A DNA stretch of 64,000 bases, taken from the IMG/VR virus record IMGVR_UViG_3300045988_167582. One strand, given 5' to 3'. The position numbers and the translations under genes were made by a program. The stretch comes from a virus. Shown here one piece after another: positions 17,239 to 23,495 of this stretch. Numbering within the stretch: position 1 is the first letter of the stretch; every line of letters begins with the position of its first letter. The notes beneath the pieces were generated by a model. The model worked only from the letters and a program-made list of their open reading frames with translations, had not been told where the DNA came from and made no database searches.

Positions 17239-17667
17239 ATGCGCAGGGTATTTATTATGCGTAAAGACCTGAATATGTCCGTCGGTAAGCTCTTAACTCA
17301 AACCTACCACTGCGCAGAAGCATATTGGACGCACGGGCTTAGAGCAAACGCAAAGCCGATAGACGACGCCAGAGGATATATTGCCAGCATCAAAATTCCC
17401 AAGGATGTGTATGAGCAGTATGTGTGCGGTATGCTCGTGAAGACCGTATGTGAGGCAAGAAATAAGAACCACCTACTTAAAGCCAAAACAATTGCAGAGA
17501 AAATAGGGCTTGTAGAGGGCGTAGATTTTGGGCTCATATACGATAAATGCTTAACGGAACTTGTTCCCGAGGAAGAGGACGGTACAACGCTGACGGGAAT
17601 TTGGTTTGCACCGCTTGATGACGAGCGGGCTCACTCAATCAGCAAGAAATATCAATTATATAAATAA
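17239..17667 (+). CDS. PTH2-type peptidyl-tRNA hydrolase-like protein
   Basis: RVFIMRKDLNMSVGKLLTQTYHCAE vs PTH2 VVR.DL.MGKGK.AAQ..HAA. LIYDKCLTEL...TGIWFAP...KYQLYK vs DAGRT.I....T.LGIGP....LKLY. Confidence 0.6.
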   Translation: MRRVFIMRKDLNMSVGKLLTQTYHCAEAYWTHGLRANAKPIDDARGYIASIKIPKDVYEQYVCGMLVKTVCEARNKNHLLKAKTIAEKIGLVEGVDFGLIYDKCLTELVPEEEDGTTLTGIWFAPLDDERAHSISKKYQLYK

Positions 17668-17685: not shown

Positions 17686-18180
17686 ATGACTATCAACTTT
17701 ATGAAGGTAGATGACAAAGCTATTACGCCTACACACGGAAGCGCCTATGCCGCAGGATTTGACTTATACGCCCGCACCAAAACGGGGGTACAGCGTATTC
17801 CTGCCGGTAAAACAGAAAAAATCGGAACCGGAATTTGTGTTGAAATCCCTGATGGGTACTTCGGAGCAATTTTTGCAAGAAGCGGACTGGCTACCAACCG
17901 AGGCTTACGCCCTGCAAATTGCGTCGGGGTCATTGATTCTGACTACAGGGGAGAGGTCATCGTGGCTCTCCATAATGATACGGATTCCTGCGAGTCTATT
18001 CACGAGGGAGACCGTATCGCACAGCTTGTTATTCTCCCGTATCTGCCTGTAATTCTCAGAGAGGTTGAGAAGCTGACGGATACCGATAGAGGTGCCGGTG
18101 GCTTCGGCAGTACTGGTGTATCTAATAAGTCTTCTCAGGAGTGCGAACAGCTTTCTTTATTTGATATGACAAACGAGTGA
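17686..18180 (+). CDS. dut: dUTP diphosphatase (trimeric dUTPase)
   Basis: AAGFDLYA, RSGLA, GVIDSDYRGEV, GDRIAQLVI, RGAGGFGSTG motifs. Confidence 0.9.
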   Translation: MTINFMKVDDKAITPTHGSAYAAGFDLYARTKTGVQRIPAGKTEKIGTGICVEIPDGYFGAIFARSGLATNRGLRPANCVGVIDSDYRGEVIVALHNDTDSCESIHEGDRIAQLVILPYLPVILREVEKLTDTDRGAGGFGSTGVSNKSSQECEQLSLFDMTNE

Positions 18181-18244
18181 TAGAACTCGCGAAAACGGGG
18201 CGAGAATATCACTCGTCCCAAATTTCTTTTAAGGAGGAGTGTCG

Positions 18245-18445
18245 ATGAAACCTACAGTTCCAATTTGGCAGAAGTTCACCATTACTGTTGAGGAAGCAGC
18301 GGTGTATTTTCGTATCGGAGAAAATAAACTGCGCCAACTTATGAGCGAGAATAGAAATGCAGACTTTATTCTGTGGAATGGCAATAGACCGCAAATAAAG
18401 CGCCAAAAGTTCGAGGACTTCATCAACAGTTTACATAACATTTAA
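18245..18445 (+). CDS. xis: Excisionase, Tn916 Xis family
   Basis: MKPTVPIWQKFTITVEEAAVYFRIGENKLRQL...NGNRPQIKRQKFE closely parallels Tn916 Xis as I recall it. SD AAGGAGG. Confidence 0.8.
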   Translation: MKPTVPIWQKFTITVEEAAVYFRIGENKLRQLMSENRNADFILWNGNRPQIKRQKFEDFINSLHNI

Positions 18446-18556: not shown

Positions 18557-19825
18557 ATGTCCGAAAAGAGACGCGACAACAAGGGTAGGTTGCTACAGTC
18601 CTGCGAAAGACAAAGAAGCGACGGTATGTATGAGTTTCGGTACTTAGACAAGCAAGGTAAGAAGCATAGTGTGTATAGTTGGAAGCTGGTTTCCACAGAC
18701 AAGGTGCCACTGGGCAAGAGATGTAAAGAGCCTCTGCGTGATACGGAACGCAGGATTATTCGAGACCTTGAGGACGGCATAGATACCATCGAAGCATACA
18801 AGACTACGCTCAACCATTTCTTTAATGAGTATATCGAAACAAAATATGAACTGAAACAATCTACCCGAACAAACTATAAGTATATGTACCGCAAGTATGT
18901 GCGAGATGACTTTGGCTGTAAGAAGATTGCGAGCATTAAATATAGCGATGTCAAGAAGTTCTATATCTCTTTGATTAGGGATAGAGGTTTCAAGCCCAAC
19001 AGTTTAGAAACAATCCACACAATACTTCATCCTGTTTTCACAGCCGCCATGAGGGACGGTAAAATCAGAGTTAATCCAAGCGACGGGGTGATGGCTGAAA
19101 TTAAGAAAAGCCACGACTGGTCAAAACCAAAACGACACGCACTAACAATTCCCGAACAAGAGGCGTTCGTGAAGTTTTGTAGTAAGAGCAAGCAATACCA
19201 GCATTGGATGCCATTGTTTACTGTGTTCCTCGGGACTGGATGCAGAGTTGGCGAGGTTATAGGACTTCGATGGGAAGACTGTGATTTTGAACACAACCTT
19301 ATTTCCATCAATCACAACCTTATATACAGGCAACAGGATAGCGGAGTGTGTGAATTCCACATTACAACCCCGAAGACCGAATCTGGTAAGCGTGTGATAC
19401 CGATGTTGCAAAAAGTCAAGGACGCACTGCTGCTTGAGTACAAAATCCAATCACGGGGTGGCTTCAATGAAACGGTAATCGATGGTTATAGTGGATTCAT
19501 ATTTAAGAATCGATTTGGCTCCGTGGTGTCAGCCCACTGCATAAACAGAGCGATTGAGAGAATATGTAGAGACTATAATAAGGAAGAAAAAGAAAAGGCA
19601 AAAGCCGAACAACGAGAGCCTGTTTTGATACCTCATTTTACAGTACACCAATTACGACATACATTCTGTACCCGGTTCTGTGAAAACGAGACGAATATCA
19701 AAGTCATTCAAGAAATAATGGGTCACGCTGATATCTCAACGACGATGGATATCTATAATGAAGCAACGATGGCAAAGAAAGTTGAAAGCTTTGCAAACCT
19801 TGAAGGCAAGATAAAAATATGCTGA
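18557..19825 (+). CDS. int: Tyrosine integrase, Tn916 Int family
   Basis: MSEKRRDNKGRLL...VYSWKLV.TD.VP.GKR N-terminus as in Tn916 Int. Catalytic GLRWED, HQLRHTF, GHADISTTMDIY. Confidence 0.9.
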   Translation: MSEKRRDNKGRLLQSCERQRSDGMYEFRYLDKQGKKHSVYSWKLVSTDKVPLGKRCKEPLRDTERRIIRDLEDGIDTIEAYKTTLNHFFNEYIETKYELKQSTRTNYKYMYRKYVRDDFGCKKIASIKYSDVKKFYISLIRDRGFKPNSLETIHTILHPVFTAAMRDGKIRVNPSDGVMAEIKKSHDWSKPKRHALTIPEQEAFVKFCSKSKQYQHWMPLFTVFLGTGCRVGEVIGLRWEDCDFEHNLISINHNLIYRQQDSGVCEFHITTPKTESGKRVIPMLQKVKDALLLEYKIQSRGGFNETVIDGYSGFIFKNRFGSVVSAHCINRAIERICRDYNKEEKEKAKAEQREPVLIPHFTVHQLRHTFCTRFCENETNIKVIQEIMGHADISTTMDIYNEATMAKKVESFANLEGKIKIC

Positions 19826-19827
19826 TG

Positions 19828-20062
19828 ATTTTACCACTTTTTCTACCACTTTTCAAAGCAAAGTAGTGGTAAAATATAAGAATATATATGAATCGAGGAT
19901 ATCGTGAATCGTTGTGAGGCAAAGGATTTGAGAAGTTATGAGAGGTTATAATAAAGTCGGATTTCTAATCCCGACAATGAAACCTTTAGATTAAAAAAAT
20001 GTTGTGAGACAACGACTTGCACCGTTATCAGTAGTTGTTTTACCACTTTTTTACCACTTTTG
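19828..20062. other. attP-like region: five TACCACT arm-type repeats flanking a ~160-bp core
   Basis: TACCACT at 19832, 19844, 20041, 20052 (direct) and AGTGGTA at 19865 (inverted). GTTGTGAGRCAA at 19911 and 20001. Immediately 3' of int. Confidence 0.45.
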
Positions 20063-20232
20063 AAATTTTAGATAGCTCACTATGATATGAATGAAAGGCA
20101 CTGTTGTTATTTACAATGGTGTTTTTCTTTTTTTAGAAATCTTTTCAGCAATAACAGCCATTTAGTGCTGAATGATAATGTTTATAATTATTAACACAAA
20201 TGAGATTTATGTTTATAATTATTGACATTATG

Positions 20233-20279
20233 ACCAAGAAAAGAAAAGCGGGCAGAGTGTATAAAACTCATGCCCGCTT
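20233..20279 (-). terminator. Rho-independent terminator (minus strand)
   Basis: 9-bp stem AAGCGGGCA/TGCCCGCTT (16-nt loop) followed on the minus strand by TTTTCTTTTCTT. Confidence 0.55.
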
Positions 20280-20300
20280 AAACGCGTTTAACGCCCCTAT

Positions 20301-20340
20301 ATTGGAAAAGAAATGGAGGAGTGTAGTTTGGCACTCCTCC
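20301..20340 (-). terminator. Hairpin with T-rich tail (minus strand), downstream of the SLOG-like gene
   Basis: Perfect 9-bp stem GGAGGAGTG/CACTCCTCC, then ATTTCTTTTCC on the minus strand. Confidence 0.45.
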
Positions 20341-20471
20341 GAAATTTGCTTTATAGAGAGTTTTCTGCTGGTTGTCAGCAATCTCTTCCTGCTGCCAACA
20401 ACTATGGAAGCTTATCCTGCCCATATTCAGCCCGACTTTTTACAGTACTTTCACACCAGCGTGTGTAAATA

Positions 20472-20990
20472 TTAGACCGACACACTCTCCTGTAACAGCT
20501 TGGAATAGATGACTTGCGTTTTTGGAGTACACGCACCAATAACTTTATCCAAGTCGCCCAATGTTTTAATAACAACCATCCGGTCAATATTAGTAAGATA
20601 CATCAACACATTTTTGTGTTGCATAATCAGATTGATAGTGTTATTCAGCGTGCCGCGACTCTCGCCATCCCAAATCATAAAGCCGTAATCAGCCTCGTTT
20701 GTCATGGCAATGTCTTTCTGCTTATAGAAATCAAACCCGTGAATGTGTGAGGGAACGGCAACGTTGCGAACGTTCCAACCACCAATGTTATTCCGAGCTT
20801 TACCGTTGCTTGCAAAAATGGTGACATTGCTATACCCCAAGTTGGAATAAAATCTCTGAACAGAAGCATCGACACCGTAACAATCTCCGACAAGGACATC
20901 GTAACCCTTTTGATAGATTGTCATCATCCTCTGCTGGACAGAAACATCTAATTTTTGCACCGAACGTGCCCCTGCGATAAAAATTTTCAC
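20472..20990 (-). CDS. Stand-alone DprA/SLOG-like Rossmann protein (172 aa)
   Basis: GTG start with SD GAGAGGAG. VLVGDCYGVDASVQRF, VTIFAS, DYGFMIWDGESRGTLNT parallel the DprA Rossmann core (G.ARGID..AH; T.AVLG; VVEA..SG.L.T). Confidence 0.55.
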   Translation of the reverse strand: MKIFIAGARSVQKLDVSVQQRMMTIYQKGYDVLVGDCYGVDASVQRFYSNLGYSNVTIFASNGKARNNIGGWNVRNVAVPSHIHGFDFYKQKDIAMTNEADYGFMIWDGESRGTLNNTINLIMQHKNVLMYLTNIDRMVVIKTLGDLDKVIGACTPKTQVIYSKLLQESVSV

Positions 20991-21010
20991 GGTATCACAC
21001 TCCTCTCAAA

Positions 21011-21643
21011 TTATTTTGTTTTGGCAATTGCCAGATAGTATACTTTCGCAACAAGTGGGTCTTCTTTCAATACGGCAACGCATTCGTTTGCAGTGCTTCC
21101 TGTGGAATACAAGTCGTCTATAAGAAGAATATTACACTTGCGTGTTGCGGGCTTTAATTTAATAATAGAGCCGTGCATATCTCTATTGTTCTTATCTATA
21201 CTCTTGGCGGGTATGTTGCTTATCTTTTTCAAAACATCCTCTGCACAAGGAATATGCATTTTAGCTGATATAGTTTCTGCAATCATATAGACTGGCTGAG
21301 AAATTCGTTCAATGGTAGGCGGTGCGGGAAGAATAATATTGACCTTTTTATCTGAAAGCCAACTATTAAGAAACTCTACACACATTTCGGCGATGGATTC
21401 ACTTGTATCTAAGTGACCGTTATATTTCAATGAATGAAGCAGTTTCCCGACGGCAGTGTATGTCGTGTTGAATTGGGGACGACCAAACACATCATTACCA
21501 ATGTATTCGCTGTTTTCTACATATTTGTCTATAATAAATCCTTCGTCCCACAAGCCATTAACTTTTATATGCACACTCATTGTGGCGTTCACCAACCTAT
21601 AATTTCTCATCATTGTTTTAGCATATATCGAGCCGAATGTCAA
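21011..21643 (-). CDS. ComF-type phosphoribosyltransferase-domain protein (start uncertain; ATG at 21580 has the better SD)
   Basis: PRPP-binding signature NILLIDDLYSTGSTANE. ComFC-like core LKYNGH...ILPAPP. No N-terminal Cys4 finger. Confidence 0.7.
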   Translation of the reverse strand: MTFGSIYAKTMMRNYRLVNATMSVHIKVNGLWDEGFIIDKYVENSEYIGNDVFGRPQFNTTYTAVGKLLHSLKYNGHLDTSESIAEMCVEFLNSWLSDKKVNIILPAPPTIERISQPVYMIAETISAKMHIPCAEDVLKKISNIPAKSIDKNNRDMHGSIIKLKPATRKCNILLIDDLYSTGSTANECVAVLKEDPLVAKVYYLAIAKTK

Positions 21644-21722
21644 TATTTCGGTTCAAGTTACCAAAATATTGTGCCGATGTGCTGGTGCAATCTGTATTAT
21701 CGGGTTCAGACCCACTTTTTAC

Positions 21723-21893
21723 TTAGGAACCAGCAGAATCATCAACCCAAGTTAGTGTACCACTGACATTTTTGAGCACCTGAGTCTTCCCGGCGTCATA
21801 GCCTTTAACTCTGGCTAACACTTCGGTAAACATCTTTTTAATGTCATCGGCATGAGTCTTATCCATAGAATTAAAACCACTGTTGTTAATCAT
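21723..21893 (-). CDS. Hypothetical 56-aa protein
   Basis: ATG with SD AGAGGT 6 nt upstream. No motif. Confidence 0.4.
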   Translation of the reverse strand: MINNSGFNSMDKTHADDIKKMFTEVLARVKGYDAGKTQVLKNVSGTLTWVDDSAGS

Positions 21894-21951
21894 AATAATA
21901 CCTCTAAAATGTTCATCAAGATATTTTACACCCACAAAATATCCTCTGAAA

Positions 21952-22350
21952 TTAGTGTTCTTCCTCGTCGGGATGCGAGGACTCATAATCAATTGTCCAG
22001 TGCGACATTTCATCAAGCATCAACATAGCGAAACTATTCCCGTGCAGTCTGTTAATATACAAATCCTCAACGCACATCAGAGTCTTTTTTTTCGTATAAA
22101 GGCGAAATTTTTGTATCGTTGTACTTGTAAAAATGTTCTTAATAACAGTGCGGCATTGTGTTCGCGTAAATTCCATCATAATGTCGTTTGTTGCGGCAAC
22201 GCTTTCCTTAAATTCCTTATCTTCGTCGATATGCCGCTCCAAAAGCTCTTTGATTTCAGCAATGCTGTCAGAGACTTCGTCAGACTTGCCATATTTCTTA
22301 AAGAAGCTGGCAATAGCCTGACGAGCGGTCTTTGAAGCAAGTGTAATCAC
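21952..22350 (-). CDS. Hypothetical protein (coiled-coil-like; start uncertain)
   Basis: GTG start without a clear SD. The open frame upstream encodes a TM-like IAAILGAVISAAS but has no canonical start. Confidence 0.35.
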   Translation of the reverse strand: MITLASKTARQAIASFFKKYGKSDEVSDSIAEIKELLERHIDEDKEFKESVAATNDIMMEFTRTQCRTVIKNIFTSTTIQKFRLYTKKKTLMCVEDLYINRLHGNSFAMLMLDEMSHWTIDYESSHPDEEEH

Positions 22351-22565
22351 GGAAGCGGCAGAAATAACAGCACCAAGAATGGCAGCTATATTTTTACCAC
22401 TTCCACAGATTATTCACCGTCTTTCTCGTCCTTGGAGCCGTCGATAAAACTGTTATTAAACTCATTAACGGCATCTTCGATGAGCATATGAATCTCAATA
22501 TCCGTAATAGTGATGCCCTTTTCACCGAGCATAGAGGTTACGGACTCAATGCACTTGTTGAGCTT

Positions 22566-23495
22566 TTACACTCTCTTAAGATATTTGCCGGCACACATCC
22601 AGTTGCCGCTCTCGAGTTGACACCAGTTACCCTGACGAGCCACGACATAGAATATCTCGCCTCTTGAGTACTGCCCGACTCGGCGATACCTTACAGACGG
22701 ACCCTTGCGAACATATAACATTTGGCAAGTCATAGTGTAGGCTGTGCCTCTGTGTGACGGAGCAGGTGACGCAGACACATTGTTCACATATGTACCTTTG
22801 GTGTTCTGAACGCCGCAAAACTCGGCAGGATTTATGCGCGTAACCGTGCCTTTACCAGTGCGAACCTCGTAATGAGTATGTGCACCAAAACTGTTGCCGG
22901 TGTTACCCATTATGCCGACAACATCACCGGCAGAAACCCTCTGACCCTTATGCATAGAGATAGACGCAAGGTGCGCGTAAAAGTGCCGCTTGCCGGTTGA
23001 ATCGGTTATGACAACAAGGTTGCCATAGCTCTGTGTGCCTGTTTTGGTTTTGCCGTCCCAGACGGAAACCATTGATACTGTGCCGCCCTCTACCGCGTGG
23101 ACGGTTCTATCATCATCTCCGACTATGTCTATACCGCCGTGTCCTTGTTTAGTATTGATATTATATGTGTACGGCTGCGTTACGCGGTTACGACCGGAAA
23201 AAAGCATTCCTGCCGCATATCCGCCTGTTTCTTCATTCTGCCTTACATCGTCTTCCGTACCGTATGTGAGAGCTCTTGCGCTATCGTTCAAGCCCTCAGT
23301 TGTCGGGTCAACGAGTATTCCGAGTGCAGACAGAAAATTCACGATAAGCATTAAGACCCCCGTCAGCGTGTCCTCACTCACTTTTGGCACGATTTCAAAC
23401 ATTCCGAGGATTTGATAAATTGTCGCCAAAATAAGTGTAATCAGCGACACCACGAATGTCTTGTTCTTAAACCTCTGCTTGATGTTGATTTTCAT
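22566..23495 (-). CDS. Endolysin: holin-like (phi LC3-type) N-terminal membrane domain + M23 peptidase + SH3
   Basis: N-terminus KNKTFVVSLITLILA...DPTTEGLNDS (holin_1-like, 2 TM). HGGIDI...HFYAHL...GNTGNSFGAHTHYEV (M23). C-terminal SH3-like YVRKGPS...GNWCQL. Confidence 0.75.
   Translation of the reverse strand: MKINIKQRFKNKTFVVSLITLILATIYQILGMFEIVPKVSEDTLTGVLMLIVNFLSALGILVDPTTEGLNDSARALTYGTEDDVRQNEETGGYAAGMLFSGRNRVTQPYTYNINTKQGHGGIDIVGDDDRTVHAVEGGTVSMVSVWDGKTKTGTQSYGNLVVITDSTGKRHFYAHLASISMHKGQRVSAGDVVGIMGNTGNSFGAHTHYEVRTGKGTVTRINPAEFCGVQNTKGTYVNNVSASPAPSHRGTAYTMTCQMLYVRKGPSVRYRRVGQYSRGEIFYVVARQGNWCQLESGNWMCAGKYLKRV

What the first reader, a model, noticed from the sequence alone, without database searches (positions are those of the whole stretch)
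20233..21643. Two-gene ComF-type PRTase + stand-alone DprA/SLOG-like cassette in the moron slot beside attP
SEEN: 21011-21643 carries the PRPP-binding signature ILLIDDLYSTGSTANE on a ComFC-like core but lacks the ComFC Cys4 finger. Twenty nt downstream, with its own SD, a 172-aa Rossmann protein (20472-20990) has motifs VLVGDCYGVDASVQRF / VTIFAS / DYGFMIWDGESRGTLNT that parallel the DprA (SLOG) core. Two hairpin terminators follow the pair. Sampled 60-nt lines in the cassette have 19-21 G+C, against 32 in a capsid-gene line. The pair sits between the lysis cassette and attP, the classical site of lysogenic-conversion and defence cargo. KNOWN: ComFC and DprA are both ssDNA-handling competence proteins, and PRTase and SLOG domains recur in predicted nucleotide-centred conflict systems (the ThsA SLOG domain binds a nucleotide signal). 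INFERENCE: this is either a compact nucleotide-signalling or nucleotide-depleting defence/TA-like module, or a phage device that interferes with host DNA uptake and ssDNA processing. I cannot assign it to any named defence family.
Basis: partly seen in the sequence, partly recalled or inferred. Interest (0 to 1): 0.8.

Follow-up and report, generated by a model that had tools for sequence, protein, structure and literature searches.

The report
Compact ShosTA-like PRTase–SLOG toxin–antitoxin pair
Next to its integration site, this temperate phage carries a conserved two-gene operon (a small ComF-type phosphoribosyltransferase followed by a small DprA-like protein) that looks like a stripped-down, previously unnamed relative of the ShosTA/PsyrTA toxin–antitoxin anti-phage systems and is widespread on phages, plasmids and genomic islands.

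Summary
The two genes are real. The PRTase is 189 aa (21011-21580, minus strand; true start ATG 21580, not TTG 21643). The SLOG protein is 172 aa (20472-20990), and terminators follow about 500 bp before the att core. The 172-aa model (pLDDT 95) hits ShosA (8zva) first, then DprA. The PRTase hits ComF first and ShosT second, and matches the PADLOC PsyrT and ShosT profiles.

In fact "PRTase toxin + DprA-like antitoxin" is the defining logic of ShosTA and PsyrTA/RqlHI. This pair is a compact, sequence-distinct version: no PPase or helicase domain on the toxin, no SAM domain on the partner, and PADLOC does not detect the partner.

The pairing is strongly conserved:
- 56 of 80 genome loci across many phyla;
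- 41 of 41 comparable plasmids;
- 8 of 11 family-type PRTases, against 0 of 61 generic ComF-like ones.

One natural fusion exists, and some plasmid copies carry a HigA-type antidote HTH.

The most likely function is a TA/abortive-infection or addiction module (confidence about 0.6). Toxicity and defence are untested. The low-GC claim is not supported. I rate it a new variant of a known kind, of moderate interest.

The parts
21011..21580 (-). Gene 1: 189-aa ComF-type phosphoribosyltransferase, the putative toxin. It has an N-terminal ~40-residue three-stranded beta domain without Cys, followed by a type-I PRTase core with the PRPP loop LLIDDLYSTGSTA (D155/D156).
   Evidence: ORF. Homologues of 186-192 aa fix the start at ATG 21580. 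PADLOC PsyrT 2.9e-12 and ShosT 2.9e-6; all 47 of 47 family members hit both. AF2 pLDDT 90.7. Foldseek: ComF 7p0h rank 1, ShosT 8zvb rank 2. The DD pair aligns to ShosT D331/D332.
20472..20990 (-). Gene 2: 172-aa basic (pI 9.0) stand-alone DprA/ShosA-like SLOG protein, the putative antitoxin. It consists of a Rossmann core plus two C-terminal helices and has no SAM domain.
   Evidence: ORF. 472 close homologues, none with a name or Pfam domain. 2,221 clusters at 50% identity. AF2 pLDDT 95. Foldseek: ShosA 8zva rank 1, then HpDprA. Pfam DprA PF02481 hits 10 of 38 relatives. Motif-by-motif alignment to ShosA: R9/R139, K92/R234, W107/W250, SxGT. pI.
21000..21007 (-). Shine-Dalgarno sequence GAGAGGAG for gene 2, inside the 20-nt intergenic spacer.
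   Evidence: Read directly from the sequence. In other loci the two genes are 0-30 nt apart or overlap by 4 bp.
21615..21671 (-). Possible own promoter, TTGACA (21643-21638)-17 nt-TGcTAAAAC (21620-21615), with a 12-bp inverted repeat (21641-21652 / 21660-21671) overlapping the -35 hexamer like an operator.
   Evidence: Sequence. Inverted repeat. Identical in L001-L004. The promoter scan does not score it because the -10 hexamer lacks the final T, so this is a lead only.
20315..20340 (-). Intrinsic terminator 1: a 9-bp stem (GGAGGAGTG...CACTCCTCC) followed by a T-run.
20236..20277 (-). Terminator-like hairpin 2: GCGGGCA, a 16-nt loop, TGCCCGC, then TTTTCTTTTCTT.
   Evidence: Read from the sequence.
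19960..20030 (.). attP region. The phage/host junction is at about 19969, where identity between the integrated and phage-form copies ends after TTCATTGTCGGGA. It overlaps the 3' end of a host class-II aminoacyl-tRNA synthetase gene. This is context and not part of the module.
   Evidence: L001/L002 (host aaRS, GreA and FolC follow the pair) compared with L003/L004 and the window (integrase follows).

Best explanation
This is a self-contained, mobile two-gene toxin-antitoxin / abortive-infection module of the ShosTA/PsyrTA kind. The temperate phage carries it as a moron at the prophage end.

Shown here:
- The PRTase has an intact PRPP-binding site, and its fold and sequence are closest to ComF, ShosT and PsyrT.
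- The partner has a basic DprA/ShosA-like SLOG fold.
- The two genes form a tightly coupled operon that is conserved across phyla and on phages, plasmids and genomic islands.

Inferred by homology to ShosTA and RqlHI:
- The PRTase uses PRPP to disturb purine/nucleotide metabolism, or to phosphoribosylate a nucleobase or DNA, causing replication stress and cell death.
- The SLOG protein keeps this in check. It could do so by binding ssDNA and promoting RecA-dependent repair (ShosA-like, type IV), or by binding the PRTase directly (RqlI-like).
- Infection by another phage removes or titrates the antitoxin, through host shut-off or accumulating ssDNA, and the infected lysogen dies before the invader completes its cycle.
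- On plasmids the same pair would act as an addiction module.
For: PRTase:
- PADLOC PsyrT 2.9e-12, ShosT 2.9e-6 and retron III-A PRTase 5e-4. All 47 of 47 family members hit PsyrT (best 2.4e-16) and ShosT (best 2.7e-11).
- Foldseek: ComF 1.6e-6, ShosT 8zvb 1.8e-5, and 8zvd with TMq 0.60.
- The invariant D155/D156 align with ShosT D331/D332. Mutating those residues abolishes ShosT toxicity (PMC11961720).

SLOG protein:
- Foldseek top hit is ShosA 8zva (9.8e-5, rmsd 3.6 over 148 columns), then HpDprA.
- Pfam DprA hits 10 of 38 relatives (best 2.8e-5), against YAcAr 4 and YpsA 1. PADLOC ShosA hits 4 of 38.
- R9 and K92 sit at the positions of ShosA R139 and R234. These are essential for ssDNA binding and antitoxin function (PMC12961424). 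The positions are basic in 50 of 50 and 50 of 50 close relatives, and in 28 of 38 and 38 of 38 distant ones. Family median pI is 9.1.

Co-conservation:
- A full-length PRTase lies directly upstream on the same strand in 56 of 80 genome loci, often with a 4-bp overlap. These span Clostridia, Anoxybacillus, Nitrospinota, Chloroflexota, Planctomycetota, Desulfobacterota and one archaeal MAG.
- 41 of 41 comparable plasmids show the same arrangement.
- From the PRTase side, 8 of 11 family-type PRTases have the SLOG gene, against 0 of 61 generic ComF-like ones.
- A natural single-chain PRTase-SLOG fusion exists, P0209.

TA-like hallmarks:
- The pair sits next to rep on Listeria pLI100 and next to a type II R-M system on an E. 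coli IncFII plasmid.
- The SLOG protein is fused to a HigA-type 'addiction module antidote' HTH on Rhizobiaceae plasmids (TIGR02684, 85 bits against a cut-off of 53.7).
- Solo SLOG genes occur, while solo family PRTases are rare.
- The flanks are variable and rich in serine recombinases, MNT nucleotidyltransferases, R-M and MADS genes, with no conserved third gene.

Precedent: ShosTA itself lies in a P2 prophage hotspot and defends against T7 and lambda.
Against: - No experiment: toxicity, neutralisation and defence are all inferred.
- The SLOG protein itself hits no Pfam, PADLOC, NCBIfam or PHROG model. The profile-profile alignment to the ShosA family is not significant (hhalign E=0.055, probability about 1%).
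- The toxin lacks the PPase-like domain of ShosT and the helicase of PsyrT. In RqlH the isolated PRTase domain was not toxic on its own (PMC4670107).
- Gene order is T then A here, but A then T in E. coli ShosTA.
- A fused PRTase-SLOG protein and solo SLOG genes in conjugative-plasmid regions would also fit a cooperative, non-toxic ssDNA-handling pair.
- The closest structural hit of the PRTase is the competence protein ComF, not ShosT.
- PADLOC would not call this system.
Confidence: 0.6

Rival explanations
1. A cooperative, non-toxic ssDNA-handling module for mobile elements. In this reading a ComFC-like protein and a DprA-like recombination mediator work together, as in natural transformation. 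They would protect or process ssDNA intermediates of the phage or plasmid and load RecA, helping establishment, recombination or evasion of host defences.
For: - The PRTase's best structural match is the competence protein ComF, and H. pylori ComFC binds ssDNA (PMC9005727 abstract).
- The SLOG protein retains the DprA/ShosA ssDNA-binding positions and is basic.
- Solo SLOG copies lie near toprim, DUF2493 and ParA genes on Mesorhizobium conjugative plasmids.
- Jumbo-phage relatives are solo.
- A single-chain fusion exists.
Against: - The PRTase scores better against the toxin profile PsyrT than against comF (43.7 against 33.2 bits).
- It has lost the Zn finger that ComFC needs for activity in vivo (PMC9005727 abstract).
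- The HigA-antidote HTH fusions, the positions next to rep and R-M genes, and the asymmetry between orphan antitoxins and orphan toxins are TA hallmarks.
- Both characterised PRTase + DprA-like pairs are toxic when the DprA-like gene is removed.
Confidence: 0.15
2. A reversible-modification TA, analogous to DarTG. The PRTase would phosphoribosylate a nucleobase in DNA, in RNA or in a free nucleotide. The SLOG protein would be an enzyme, a LOG-like N-glycosidase / phosphoribohydrolase, that removes or degrades the adduct rather than acting through RecA.
For: - The SLOG superfamily includes LOG phosphoribohydrolases, which are structural hits (1t35).
- The family's invariant residues are polar and cluster at the SLOG ligand site: GDxxGxD...Q, RNN, KD and SxGTLNN. 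That is more conservation than a pure DNA-binding surface would need.
- The protein is only the bare SLOG core, without the SAM domain that ShosA needs.
- The RqlHI authors proposed that the PRTase alters a nucleotide and RqlI resolves it (PMC4670107).
Against: - The LOG catalytic signature PGGxGTxxE is not present; the motif reads S-R/K-G-T-L-N-N with no Glu (from my own knowledge of LOG, not tested here).
- DprA/ShosA are much closer structural matches than LOG (E 1e-4 against 0.08).
- ShosA works through ssDNA and RecA.
Confidence: 0.12
3. A nucleotide-signalling sensor-effector pair. The SLOG domain would sense a nucleotide second messenger, as ThsA does, and would then activate or release the PRTase as a PRPP- or nucleotide-depleting effector.
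For: SLOG domains bind nucleotide signals in Thoeris (7uxs is a weak structural hit, E=0.049). The ligand-site residues are conserved.
Against: - No signal-producing enzyme (TIR, cyclase, CD-NTase) is conserved nearby; the flanks are heterogeneous.
- The SLOG protein is nearer to DprA/ShosA than to ThsA.
- The two proteins are separate, and the second carries repressor-type HTH domains in some lineages.
Confidence: 0.05
4. A phage device that blocks host natural transformation or ssDNA processing by mimicking ComFC and DprA.
For: Only the homology of both proteins to competence factors.
Against: - The dyad is mostly outside phages: chromosomal islands and plasmids in many phyla, including lineages not known to be competent.
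- There is no link to competence operons; 0 of 61 generic ComF genes have this partner.
- No match was found in 50,697 deposited phage genomes.
Confidence: 0.03

Closest known systems
ShosTA (E. coli APEC O1 ShosT ABJ01488 / ShosA ABJ01487; PDB 8ZVA-8ZVD)
   Same: - It is a two-gene module of a PRTase toxin plus a DprA-like SLOG antitoxin.
- It is carried in a prophage accessory hotspot.
- Both window proteins hit the ShosTA crystal structures: ShosA at rank 1, ShosT at rank 2.
- The PRPP-loop DD pair is conserved, and basic residues sit at ShosA R139/R234.
- The PADLOC ShosT profile matches the PRTase.
   Different: - The toxin is 189 aa against 424 aa. It has no N-terminal PPase-like hydrolase domain and carries a 40-residue beta domain instead.
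- The partner is 172 aa against 328 aa. It has no SAM domain and seven strands rather than a nine-stranded sheet.
- Gene order is T then A here, A then T in E. coli.
- Sequence identity is about 12%.
- The PADLOC ShosA profile misses the window protein.
- The hhalign comparison of the two families is not significant.
PsyrTA / RqlHI
   Same: - PsyrT is the best profile match for the PRTase (2.9e-12; 47 of 47 relatives).
- The toxin gene lies upstream of the DprA-like gene.
- PRTase-dependent genotoxicity is countered by the DprA-like partner, which binds the PRTase domain.
   Different: - There is no RecQ-like helicase domain; the match covers only profile positions 537-684 of 689.
- No member of the SLOG family hits PADLOC PsyrA.
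[quoted passage not shown]
ComFC + DprA of natural transformation
   Same: These are the same two folds. ComF is the top structural hit for the PRTase, and DprA is second after ShosA for the partner. TIGR00201 and PF02481 are the nearest general families.
   Different: - The Cys4 zinc finger is absent.
- Scores are far below the family cut-offs (33 against 233 bits).
- The DprA SAM and C-terminal domains are absent.
- The two genes are adjacent and mobile, unlike comFC and dprA.
- Generic ComF genes never have this neighbour (0 of 61).
YpsA-clade SLOG + PRTase gene pair noted computationally (Burroughs 2015, cited in Brzozowski 2019, PMC6459960)
   Same: It is a small stand-alone SLOG protein in a conserved gene pair with a PRTase, predicted to belong to conflict systems. 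This may be the same dyad, or an overlapping set.
   Different: By my tests the family is nearer DprA/ShosA than YpsA. Pfam YpsA hits 1 of 38 (E=0.12) against DprA 10 of 38. Foldseek puts YpsA 2nx2 at rank 13 (4.1e-3) against ShosA at rank 1. I could not read the 2015 paper, so identity with that branch is unresolved.
Retron type III-A PRTase effectors
   Same: The PRTase core is homologous (44 of 47 relatives hit PRTase_III-A), and the PRTase acts as an abortive-infection effector.
   Different: There is no reverse transcriptase or msr/msd RNA nearby, and Rfam finds nothing. The partner is a SLOG protein instead.

Membership tests
ShosTA | Toxin with a type-I PRTase domain and an intact PRPP-binding loop (D331/D332 in ShosT). 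| tested here: met
   PADLOC ShosT 2.9e-6 for the window protein, and 47 of 47 relatives. Foldseek 8zvb 1.8e-5. LLIDD aligns to LVIDD, and the DD pair is invariant.
ShosTA | Toxin N-terminal PPase-like hydrolase domain (ShosT residues 1-164). | tested here: not met
   The protein is only 189 aa. Its N-terminal 40 residues form a three-stranded beta element. The ShosT profile match covers only the PRTase part.
ShosTA | Antitoxin with a DprA-like Rossmann (SLOG) domain. | tested here: met
   Structure: ShosA 8zva is the top PDB hit (E=9.8e-5, TMq 0.60). Sequence support is weak: PADLOC ShosA gives no hit for the window protein and hits 4 of 38 relatives, and hhalign gives E=0.055.
ShosTA | Antitoxin N-terminal SAM domain (needed for ShosA stability). 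| tested here: not met
   The model starts directly with beta-1 of the Rossmann core at residue 2. The alignment to ShosA begins at ShosA residue ~129-133.
ShosTA | Basic residues for ssDNA binding at ShosA R139 and R234. | tested here: met
   R9 aligns to R139 in two alignments and K92 aligns to R234 in one. Both positions are conserved as K/R. Caveat: the alignment itself is statistically weak.
ShosTA | ShosT is toxic, ShosA neutralises it, and the pair defends against phage. | not testable with these tools
   This needs expression and plaque assays.
PsyrTA / RqlHI | Toxin is a RecQ-like helicase fused to a C-terminal PRTase. | tested here: not met
   Only the PRTase part of the PsyrT profile (positions 537-684 of 689) is matched, and the protein is 189 aa.
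PsyrTA / RqlHI | DprA-like antitoxin (PsyrA/RqlI) encoded downstream of the toxin. | tested here: inconclusive
   The gene order matches and the fold is DprA-like. However, PADLOC PsyrA matched none of the 88 scanned members of alignments A1 and A3 at E<=1.
ComFC (competence) | N-terminal four-Cys zinc finger plus a PRTase domain, reaching the TIGR00201 cut-off. | tested here: not met
   There is no CxxC and no Cys in residues 1-60. TIGR00201 scores 33.2 bits against a cut-off of 233.55.
DprA (PF02481 / TIGR00732) | Reaches the family profile, with the SAM + Rossmann (+ C-terminal) architecture. | tested here: not met
   The window protein has no Pfam or NCBIfam hit. Relatives give only sub-threshold hits (best 2.8e-5). 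It is a single-domain protein.
SLOG superfamily (fold level) | Rossmannoid SLOG fold with a GxxxGxD-type loop and an SxGT phosphate-binding loop. | tested here: met
   The top 50 PDB hits are dominated by SLOG proteins: ShosA, DprA, MoCoBD, YpsA, TRPM, ThsA and LOG. Viral hits are DprA-like and DUF2493/YAcAr proteins. The motifs are invariant.
YpsA-clade SLOG-PRTase dyad (Burroughs 2015) | The SLOG protein belongs to the YpsA family (PF06908). | tested here: inconclusive
   PF06908 hits 1 of 38 relatives at E=0.12. 2nx2 is at rank 13 with E=4.1e-3. The gene pair with a PRTase is present, but the source paper could not be read.
Retron type III-A | The PRTase effector is next to a reverse transcriptase and ncRNA. 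| tested here: not met
   No RT is adjacent in the window, and there is no Rfam hit in 19700-22500.

The most novel reading that the evidence does not exclude
The minimal pair could be an enzyme/anti-enzyme system. In this reading the PRTase installs a phosphoribosyl adduct on a nucleobase, in DNA or in a nucleotide. The bare SLOG domain would be a LOG-like glycosidase that removes the adduct. That would make it a DarTG-style reversible nucleic-acid modification system using PRPP instead of NAD+. It would also reveal the long-sought substrate logic of ShosT, PsyrT and the retron PRTases.
Probability: 0.12. Interest if true: 0.8.

Novelty: new variant of a known kind. Interest (0 to 1): 0.5.

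Why it matters
PRTase effectors recur in ShosTA, PsyrTA and type III-A retrons, yet their real substrate and the way DprA-like partners neutralise them are still debated. The two 2025-2026 ShosTA studies propose different triggers.

This family reduces the system to its two core domains. It is large and widespread: about 2,200 clusters at 50% identity, from many phyla. It occurs on gut-Clostridia prophages, on Klebsiella and Enterobacter plasmids, on Listeria pLI100 and in Neisseria gonorrhoeae chromosomes. The PADLOC version I could test does not recognise it.

If it is toxic and defensive, it would add a compact, tractable model for this mechanism. It would also close an annotation gap, since these genes are currently labelled "ComF family protein" plus "hypothetical protein". 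If it is not toxic, it would show that ComF/DprA-like pairs have a second, mobile-element-specific role in ssDNA handling.

Tried and rejected
- HMMER searches of the window SLOG protein and of the A1 and A3 profiles against PDB sequences gave only chance hits. Only fold comparison and Pfam scans of relatives revealed the DprA link.
- The 175-bp block that differs between L001 and L003 downstream of the pair looked like an invertible segment. It is just two 3-nt indels that shift the register.
- I tested the idea that the SLOG family swaps toxin partners. In L005-L008 the upstream 186-aa gene is unrelated to the PRTase, but upstream genes in PRTase-less loci are heterogeneous, with no recurrent alternative.
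- Compositional anomaly as evidence of recent acquisition: rejected (14th percentile).
- RNA antitoxin or riboswitch: no Rfam match.
- Nucleotide and protein searches of 50,697 deposited phages found nothing.
- Conserved operator: palindromes upstream of the dyad are enriched (13 of 62 against 2.6% in shuffles), but many are GC-rich, terminator-like hairpins and they share no sequence.
- Single-sequence and family hhalign comparisons with ShosA and ShosT are not statistically significant. I used them only for residue correspondence.
- The small ORFs between the lysin and the PRTase (132 aa and 97 aa) have no informative PHROG or Pfam hit and are not co-conserved with the pair.
- Burroughs 2015 could not be retrieved.
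Full report
**What is there.**
- On the minus strand, window 21011-21580 encodes a 189-aa protein and 20472-20990 encodes a 172-aa protein.
Almost all of the 84 homologues are 186-192 aa and align from MSVHIK, so the start is ATG 21580. The TTG belongs to a TTGACA hexamer.
- The genes are 20 nt apart, with GAGAGGAG ahead of the GTG of gene 2.
- Downstream lies a scanned intrinsic terminator (20340-20315). A second hairpin with a T-run (20277-20236) has a loop too long for the tool.
- Upstream there is a possible promoter, TTGACA-17-TGcTAAAAC. It is overlapped by a 12-bp inverted repeat and was not scored by the scan.
- The cassette's GC content (0.402) is at the 14th percentile of same-size windows (window mean 0.428), so the claimed compositional contrast is not real.

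**Context.**
- A 99%-identical copy of gene 2 (P0001) occurs on contigs in two states.
- In L001/L002 the pair is followed by host genes: a class-II aaRS, GreA and FolC. In L003/L004 and in the window it is followed by the integrase.
- The sequences diverge after TTCATTGTCGGGA, which is window position about 19969.
- The window is therefore in the phage (attP) form. The pair is the last transcription unit before att, after the holin-M23 lysin. The "moron slot beside attP" description is correct.

**Gene 1.**
- Pfam sees only a sub-threshold PRTase match and NCBIfam only a weak comF match (33 bits against a cut-off of 233).
- PADLOC matches PsyrT (2.9e-12, the C-terminal PRTase part), ShosT (2.9e-6) and retron III-A PRTases. 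All 47 of 47 aligned relatives hit both PsyrT and ShosT.
- The AF2 model (pLDDT 90.7) hits H. pylori ComF first and ShosT second.
- The PRPP loop LLIDDLYSTG aligns with ShosT LVIDDFCTEG. D331A/D332A in that loop abolishes ShosT toxicity (PMC11961720).
- There is no zinc finger. The first ~40 residues form a conserved, Cys-free beta element.

**Gene 2.**
- The protein itself hits no profile library.
- It has 472 close homologues without a name and about 2,221 clusters at 50% identity in the exhaustive search.
- The AF2 model (pLDDT 95) has ShosA (8zva) as its best PDB match, followed by HpDprA. More distant hits are the MoCo-binding protein, YpsA, TRPM SLOG, ThsA SLOG and LOG.
- The viral structure library returns DprA-like and DUF2493/YAcAr proteins.
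- Across a cross-phylum alignment (A3), 10 of 38 members reach Pfam DprA (best 2.8e-5), against 4 for YAcAr and 1 for YpsA. Four reach PADLOC ShosA.
- I fetched ShosA and ShosT from E. coli APEC O1, where they lie in a P2-like prophage hotspot, and built a ShosA family alignment.
- hhalign of the two families is not significant (E=0.055), but it aligns the whole core motif by motif: R9/R139, GDxxGxD/SGLAxGID, K92/R234, W107/W250 and SxGT/SGT (the N-terminal half also appears).
- R139 and R234 are the residues ShosA needs for ssDNA binding and for its antitoxin function (PMC12961424). Their counterparts are conserved as K/R, and the family is basic, with median pI 9.1.

**Is the pairing conserved?** Yes, strongly.
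- *From the SLOG side:* 56 of 80 genome loci have a full-length family PRTase immediately upstream on the same strand, often overlapping by 4 bp. More loci have truncated copies or are cut by contig ends. The loci come from Clostridia, Anoxybacillus, Nitrospinota, Chloroflexota, Planctomycetota, Desulfobacterota, Spirochaetaceae and one archaeal MAG.
- *On plasmids:* the SLOG protein matches 101 records and the PRTase 65. In all 41 records listed in both tables the genes are adjacent in the order PRTase then SLOG.
- *From the PRTase side:* PRTases that match the whole family profile, including the N-terminal domain, have the SLOG gene downstream in 8 of 11 cases. Generic ComF-like PRTases never do (0 of 61).
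- One representative (P0209) is a single-chain PRTase-SLOG fusion.
- Three further viral contigs carry the pair near their ends.
- The flanks are heterogeneous: serine recombinases, MNT-type nucleotidyltransferases, R-M, MADS and PDC-S09 genes. There is no conserved third gene.

**TA-like features.**
- The dyad sits beside rep on Listeria innocua pLI100 and beside a type II R-M system on an E. coli IncFII plasmid.
- On Rhizobiaceae plasmids the SLOG protein carries a C-terminal HigA-type "addiction module antidote" HTH (TIGR02684, 85 bits, above its cut-off). Other copies are annotated as XRE/HTH regulators.
- Solo SLOG genes exist, whereas solo family PRTases are rare.

**Comparison with what is known.**
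- Millman et al. and Rousset et al. describe ShosTA and PsyrTA/RqlHI as a PRTase toxin plus a DprA-homologous antitoxin, with ShosTA in a P2 hotspot.
- This cassette works on the same plan but fails several membership features. It has no PPase-like domain (ShosT) or helicase (PsyrT). It has no SAM domain (ShosA). Its gene order is the opposite of E. coli ShosTA. The PADLOC antitoxin profiles do not hit it.
- A YpsA-clade SLOG-PRTase pair was noted computationally (PMC6459960). My tests place this family nearer DprA/ShosA, but I could not read the original paper.

**Mechanism.**
- I consider a ShosTA/PsyrTA-like toxin-antitoxin / abortive-infection (or addiction) module most likely (about 0.6).
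- The toxic step (PRPP-dependent disturbance of nucleotide metabolism or DNA) and the neutralising step (ssDNA/RecA or direct binding) are inferred from the homologues and not shown here.
- Caveat: the isolated PRTase domain of RqlH was not toxic.
- Rivals are a cooperative ssDNA-handling pair for mobile elements (0.15), a reversible phosphoribosylation system with an enzymatic SLOG partner (0.12), a signal sensor-effector pair (0.05) and interference with host competence (0.03).

**Verdict.**
It does look like a TA/defence module, but it is relatable to named families.
- It is a new, compact variant of a known kind. It is widespread and missed by the PADLOC release tested.
- It is of moderate interest, mainly as a minimal model for the unresolved PRTase/DprA-like defence mechanism.

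Noticed in passing
window 17239-17667 (+): The phage encodes a 142-aa PTH2-family peptidyl-tRNA hydrolase. It lies just upstream of a dUTPase (17686-18180), a Tn916-type Xis (18239-18445) and the tyrosine integrase (18557-19825). The Pfam labels come from the same phage in L003/L004. A phage-borne PTH2 is unusual and could counter tRNA- or translation-targeting defences.
   Followed up: no
window 22566-23495 (-): The lysis protein is a single 309-aa fusion. It has an N-terminal holin-like membrane domain (PF04531; PHROG holin, residues 1-89), an M23 metallopeptidase and a faint SH3 match.
   Followed up: partly
window 21641-21671: A 12-bp inverted repeat (CAATATTTTGGT-7 nt-ACCGAAATATTG on the coding strand) overlaps the TTGACA hexamer upstream of the PRTase gene. 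It looks like an operator, yet the window's SLOG protein has no HTH. The repeat is identical in L001-L004. L018 has an 18-bp palindrome that also contains TTGACA.
   Followed up: partly
window ~19960-20030; L001 6990-7025: The att junction lies at about window 19969 and overlaps the 3' end of a host class-II aminoacyl-tRNA synthetase gene (tRNA_anti-codon + tRNA-synt_2). The phage therefore integrates into, and presumably restores, the end of an aaRS gene rather than a tRNA gene.
   Followed up: partly
L102 2992-3849 (Rhizobium plasmid pCC1099_2) and similar Agrobacterium, Brucella and Xanthomonas plasmids: Here the SLOG domain is fused to a C-terminal HigA/HI1420-type antidote HTH (TIGR02684, residues 203-279). 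Elsewhere the SLOG gene is annotated as an XRE/HTH regulator.
   Followed up: yes
P0209 (404 aa, metagenomic representative): A natural single-polypeptide fusion of the family PRTase (residues 2-201) and the SLOG domain (210-379). Other representatives fuse the SLOG domain to unrelated N- or C-terminal regions of 150-350 aa (P0222, P0234, P0266, P0271, P0275).
   Followed up: partly
L105 (Mesorhizobium huakuii plasmid p_2) 2492-3025: A solo SLOG homologue without a PRTase sits among toprim, DUF2493 (another SLOG family), Phd antitoxin, DUF736 and ParA genes on a conjugative plasmid. This suggests a PRTase-independent ssDNA-related role for some members.
   Followed up: no
L005-L008, 6001-6543 and flanks: A 58%-identical solo SLOG homologue lies in an island with two SocA/Panacea-domain genes and an RnlB-antitoxin-domain gene, next to prophage tail genes. 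The upstream 186-aa gene is highly charged, with an acidic D/E-rich stretch, and is unrelated to the PRTase.
   Followed up: partly
Alignments A1 and A3, C-termini: Many family members end in a short conserved tail of the form Q-[LMI]-[SN]-[LFM]-x (for example QLSLL, QMSLI, ELNFA). The window protein and its closest relatives lack it. It might be a degron or a partner-binding tail, reminiscent of the C-terminal instability element of ShosA.
   Followed up: no
NZ_CP119142.1 / NZ_CP119140.1, ~47.3-48.4 kb: The dyad is present in Neisseria gonorrhoeae chromosomes. These 2.17-Mb records sit in the plasmid collection, and the genes are unannotated in the PLSDB table. N. gonorrhoeae is naturally competent and also has canonical ComF and DprA (that last point is from my own knowledge).
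   Followed up: no
L111 2006-3309; L112 37-3481; L117 670-3534: These family-type PRTases have other arrangements. L111 has a different 238-aa gene overlapping the PRTase stop. L112 has two tandem ~380-aa PRTase proteins with N-terminal extensions, followed by a 383-aa gene. L117 has a 954-aa helicase-PRTase (PsyrT-like). These may be alternative partners.
   Followed up: partly
L089-L100 (viral contigs; seven of the twelve are longer than 170 kb): Distant SLOG relatives (30-41% identity over residues 1-117) occur in viral contigs, many of jumbo-phage size, without a PRTase. They lack the RNNxGxW motif and the C-terminal ~50 residues.
   Followed up: no
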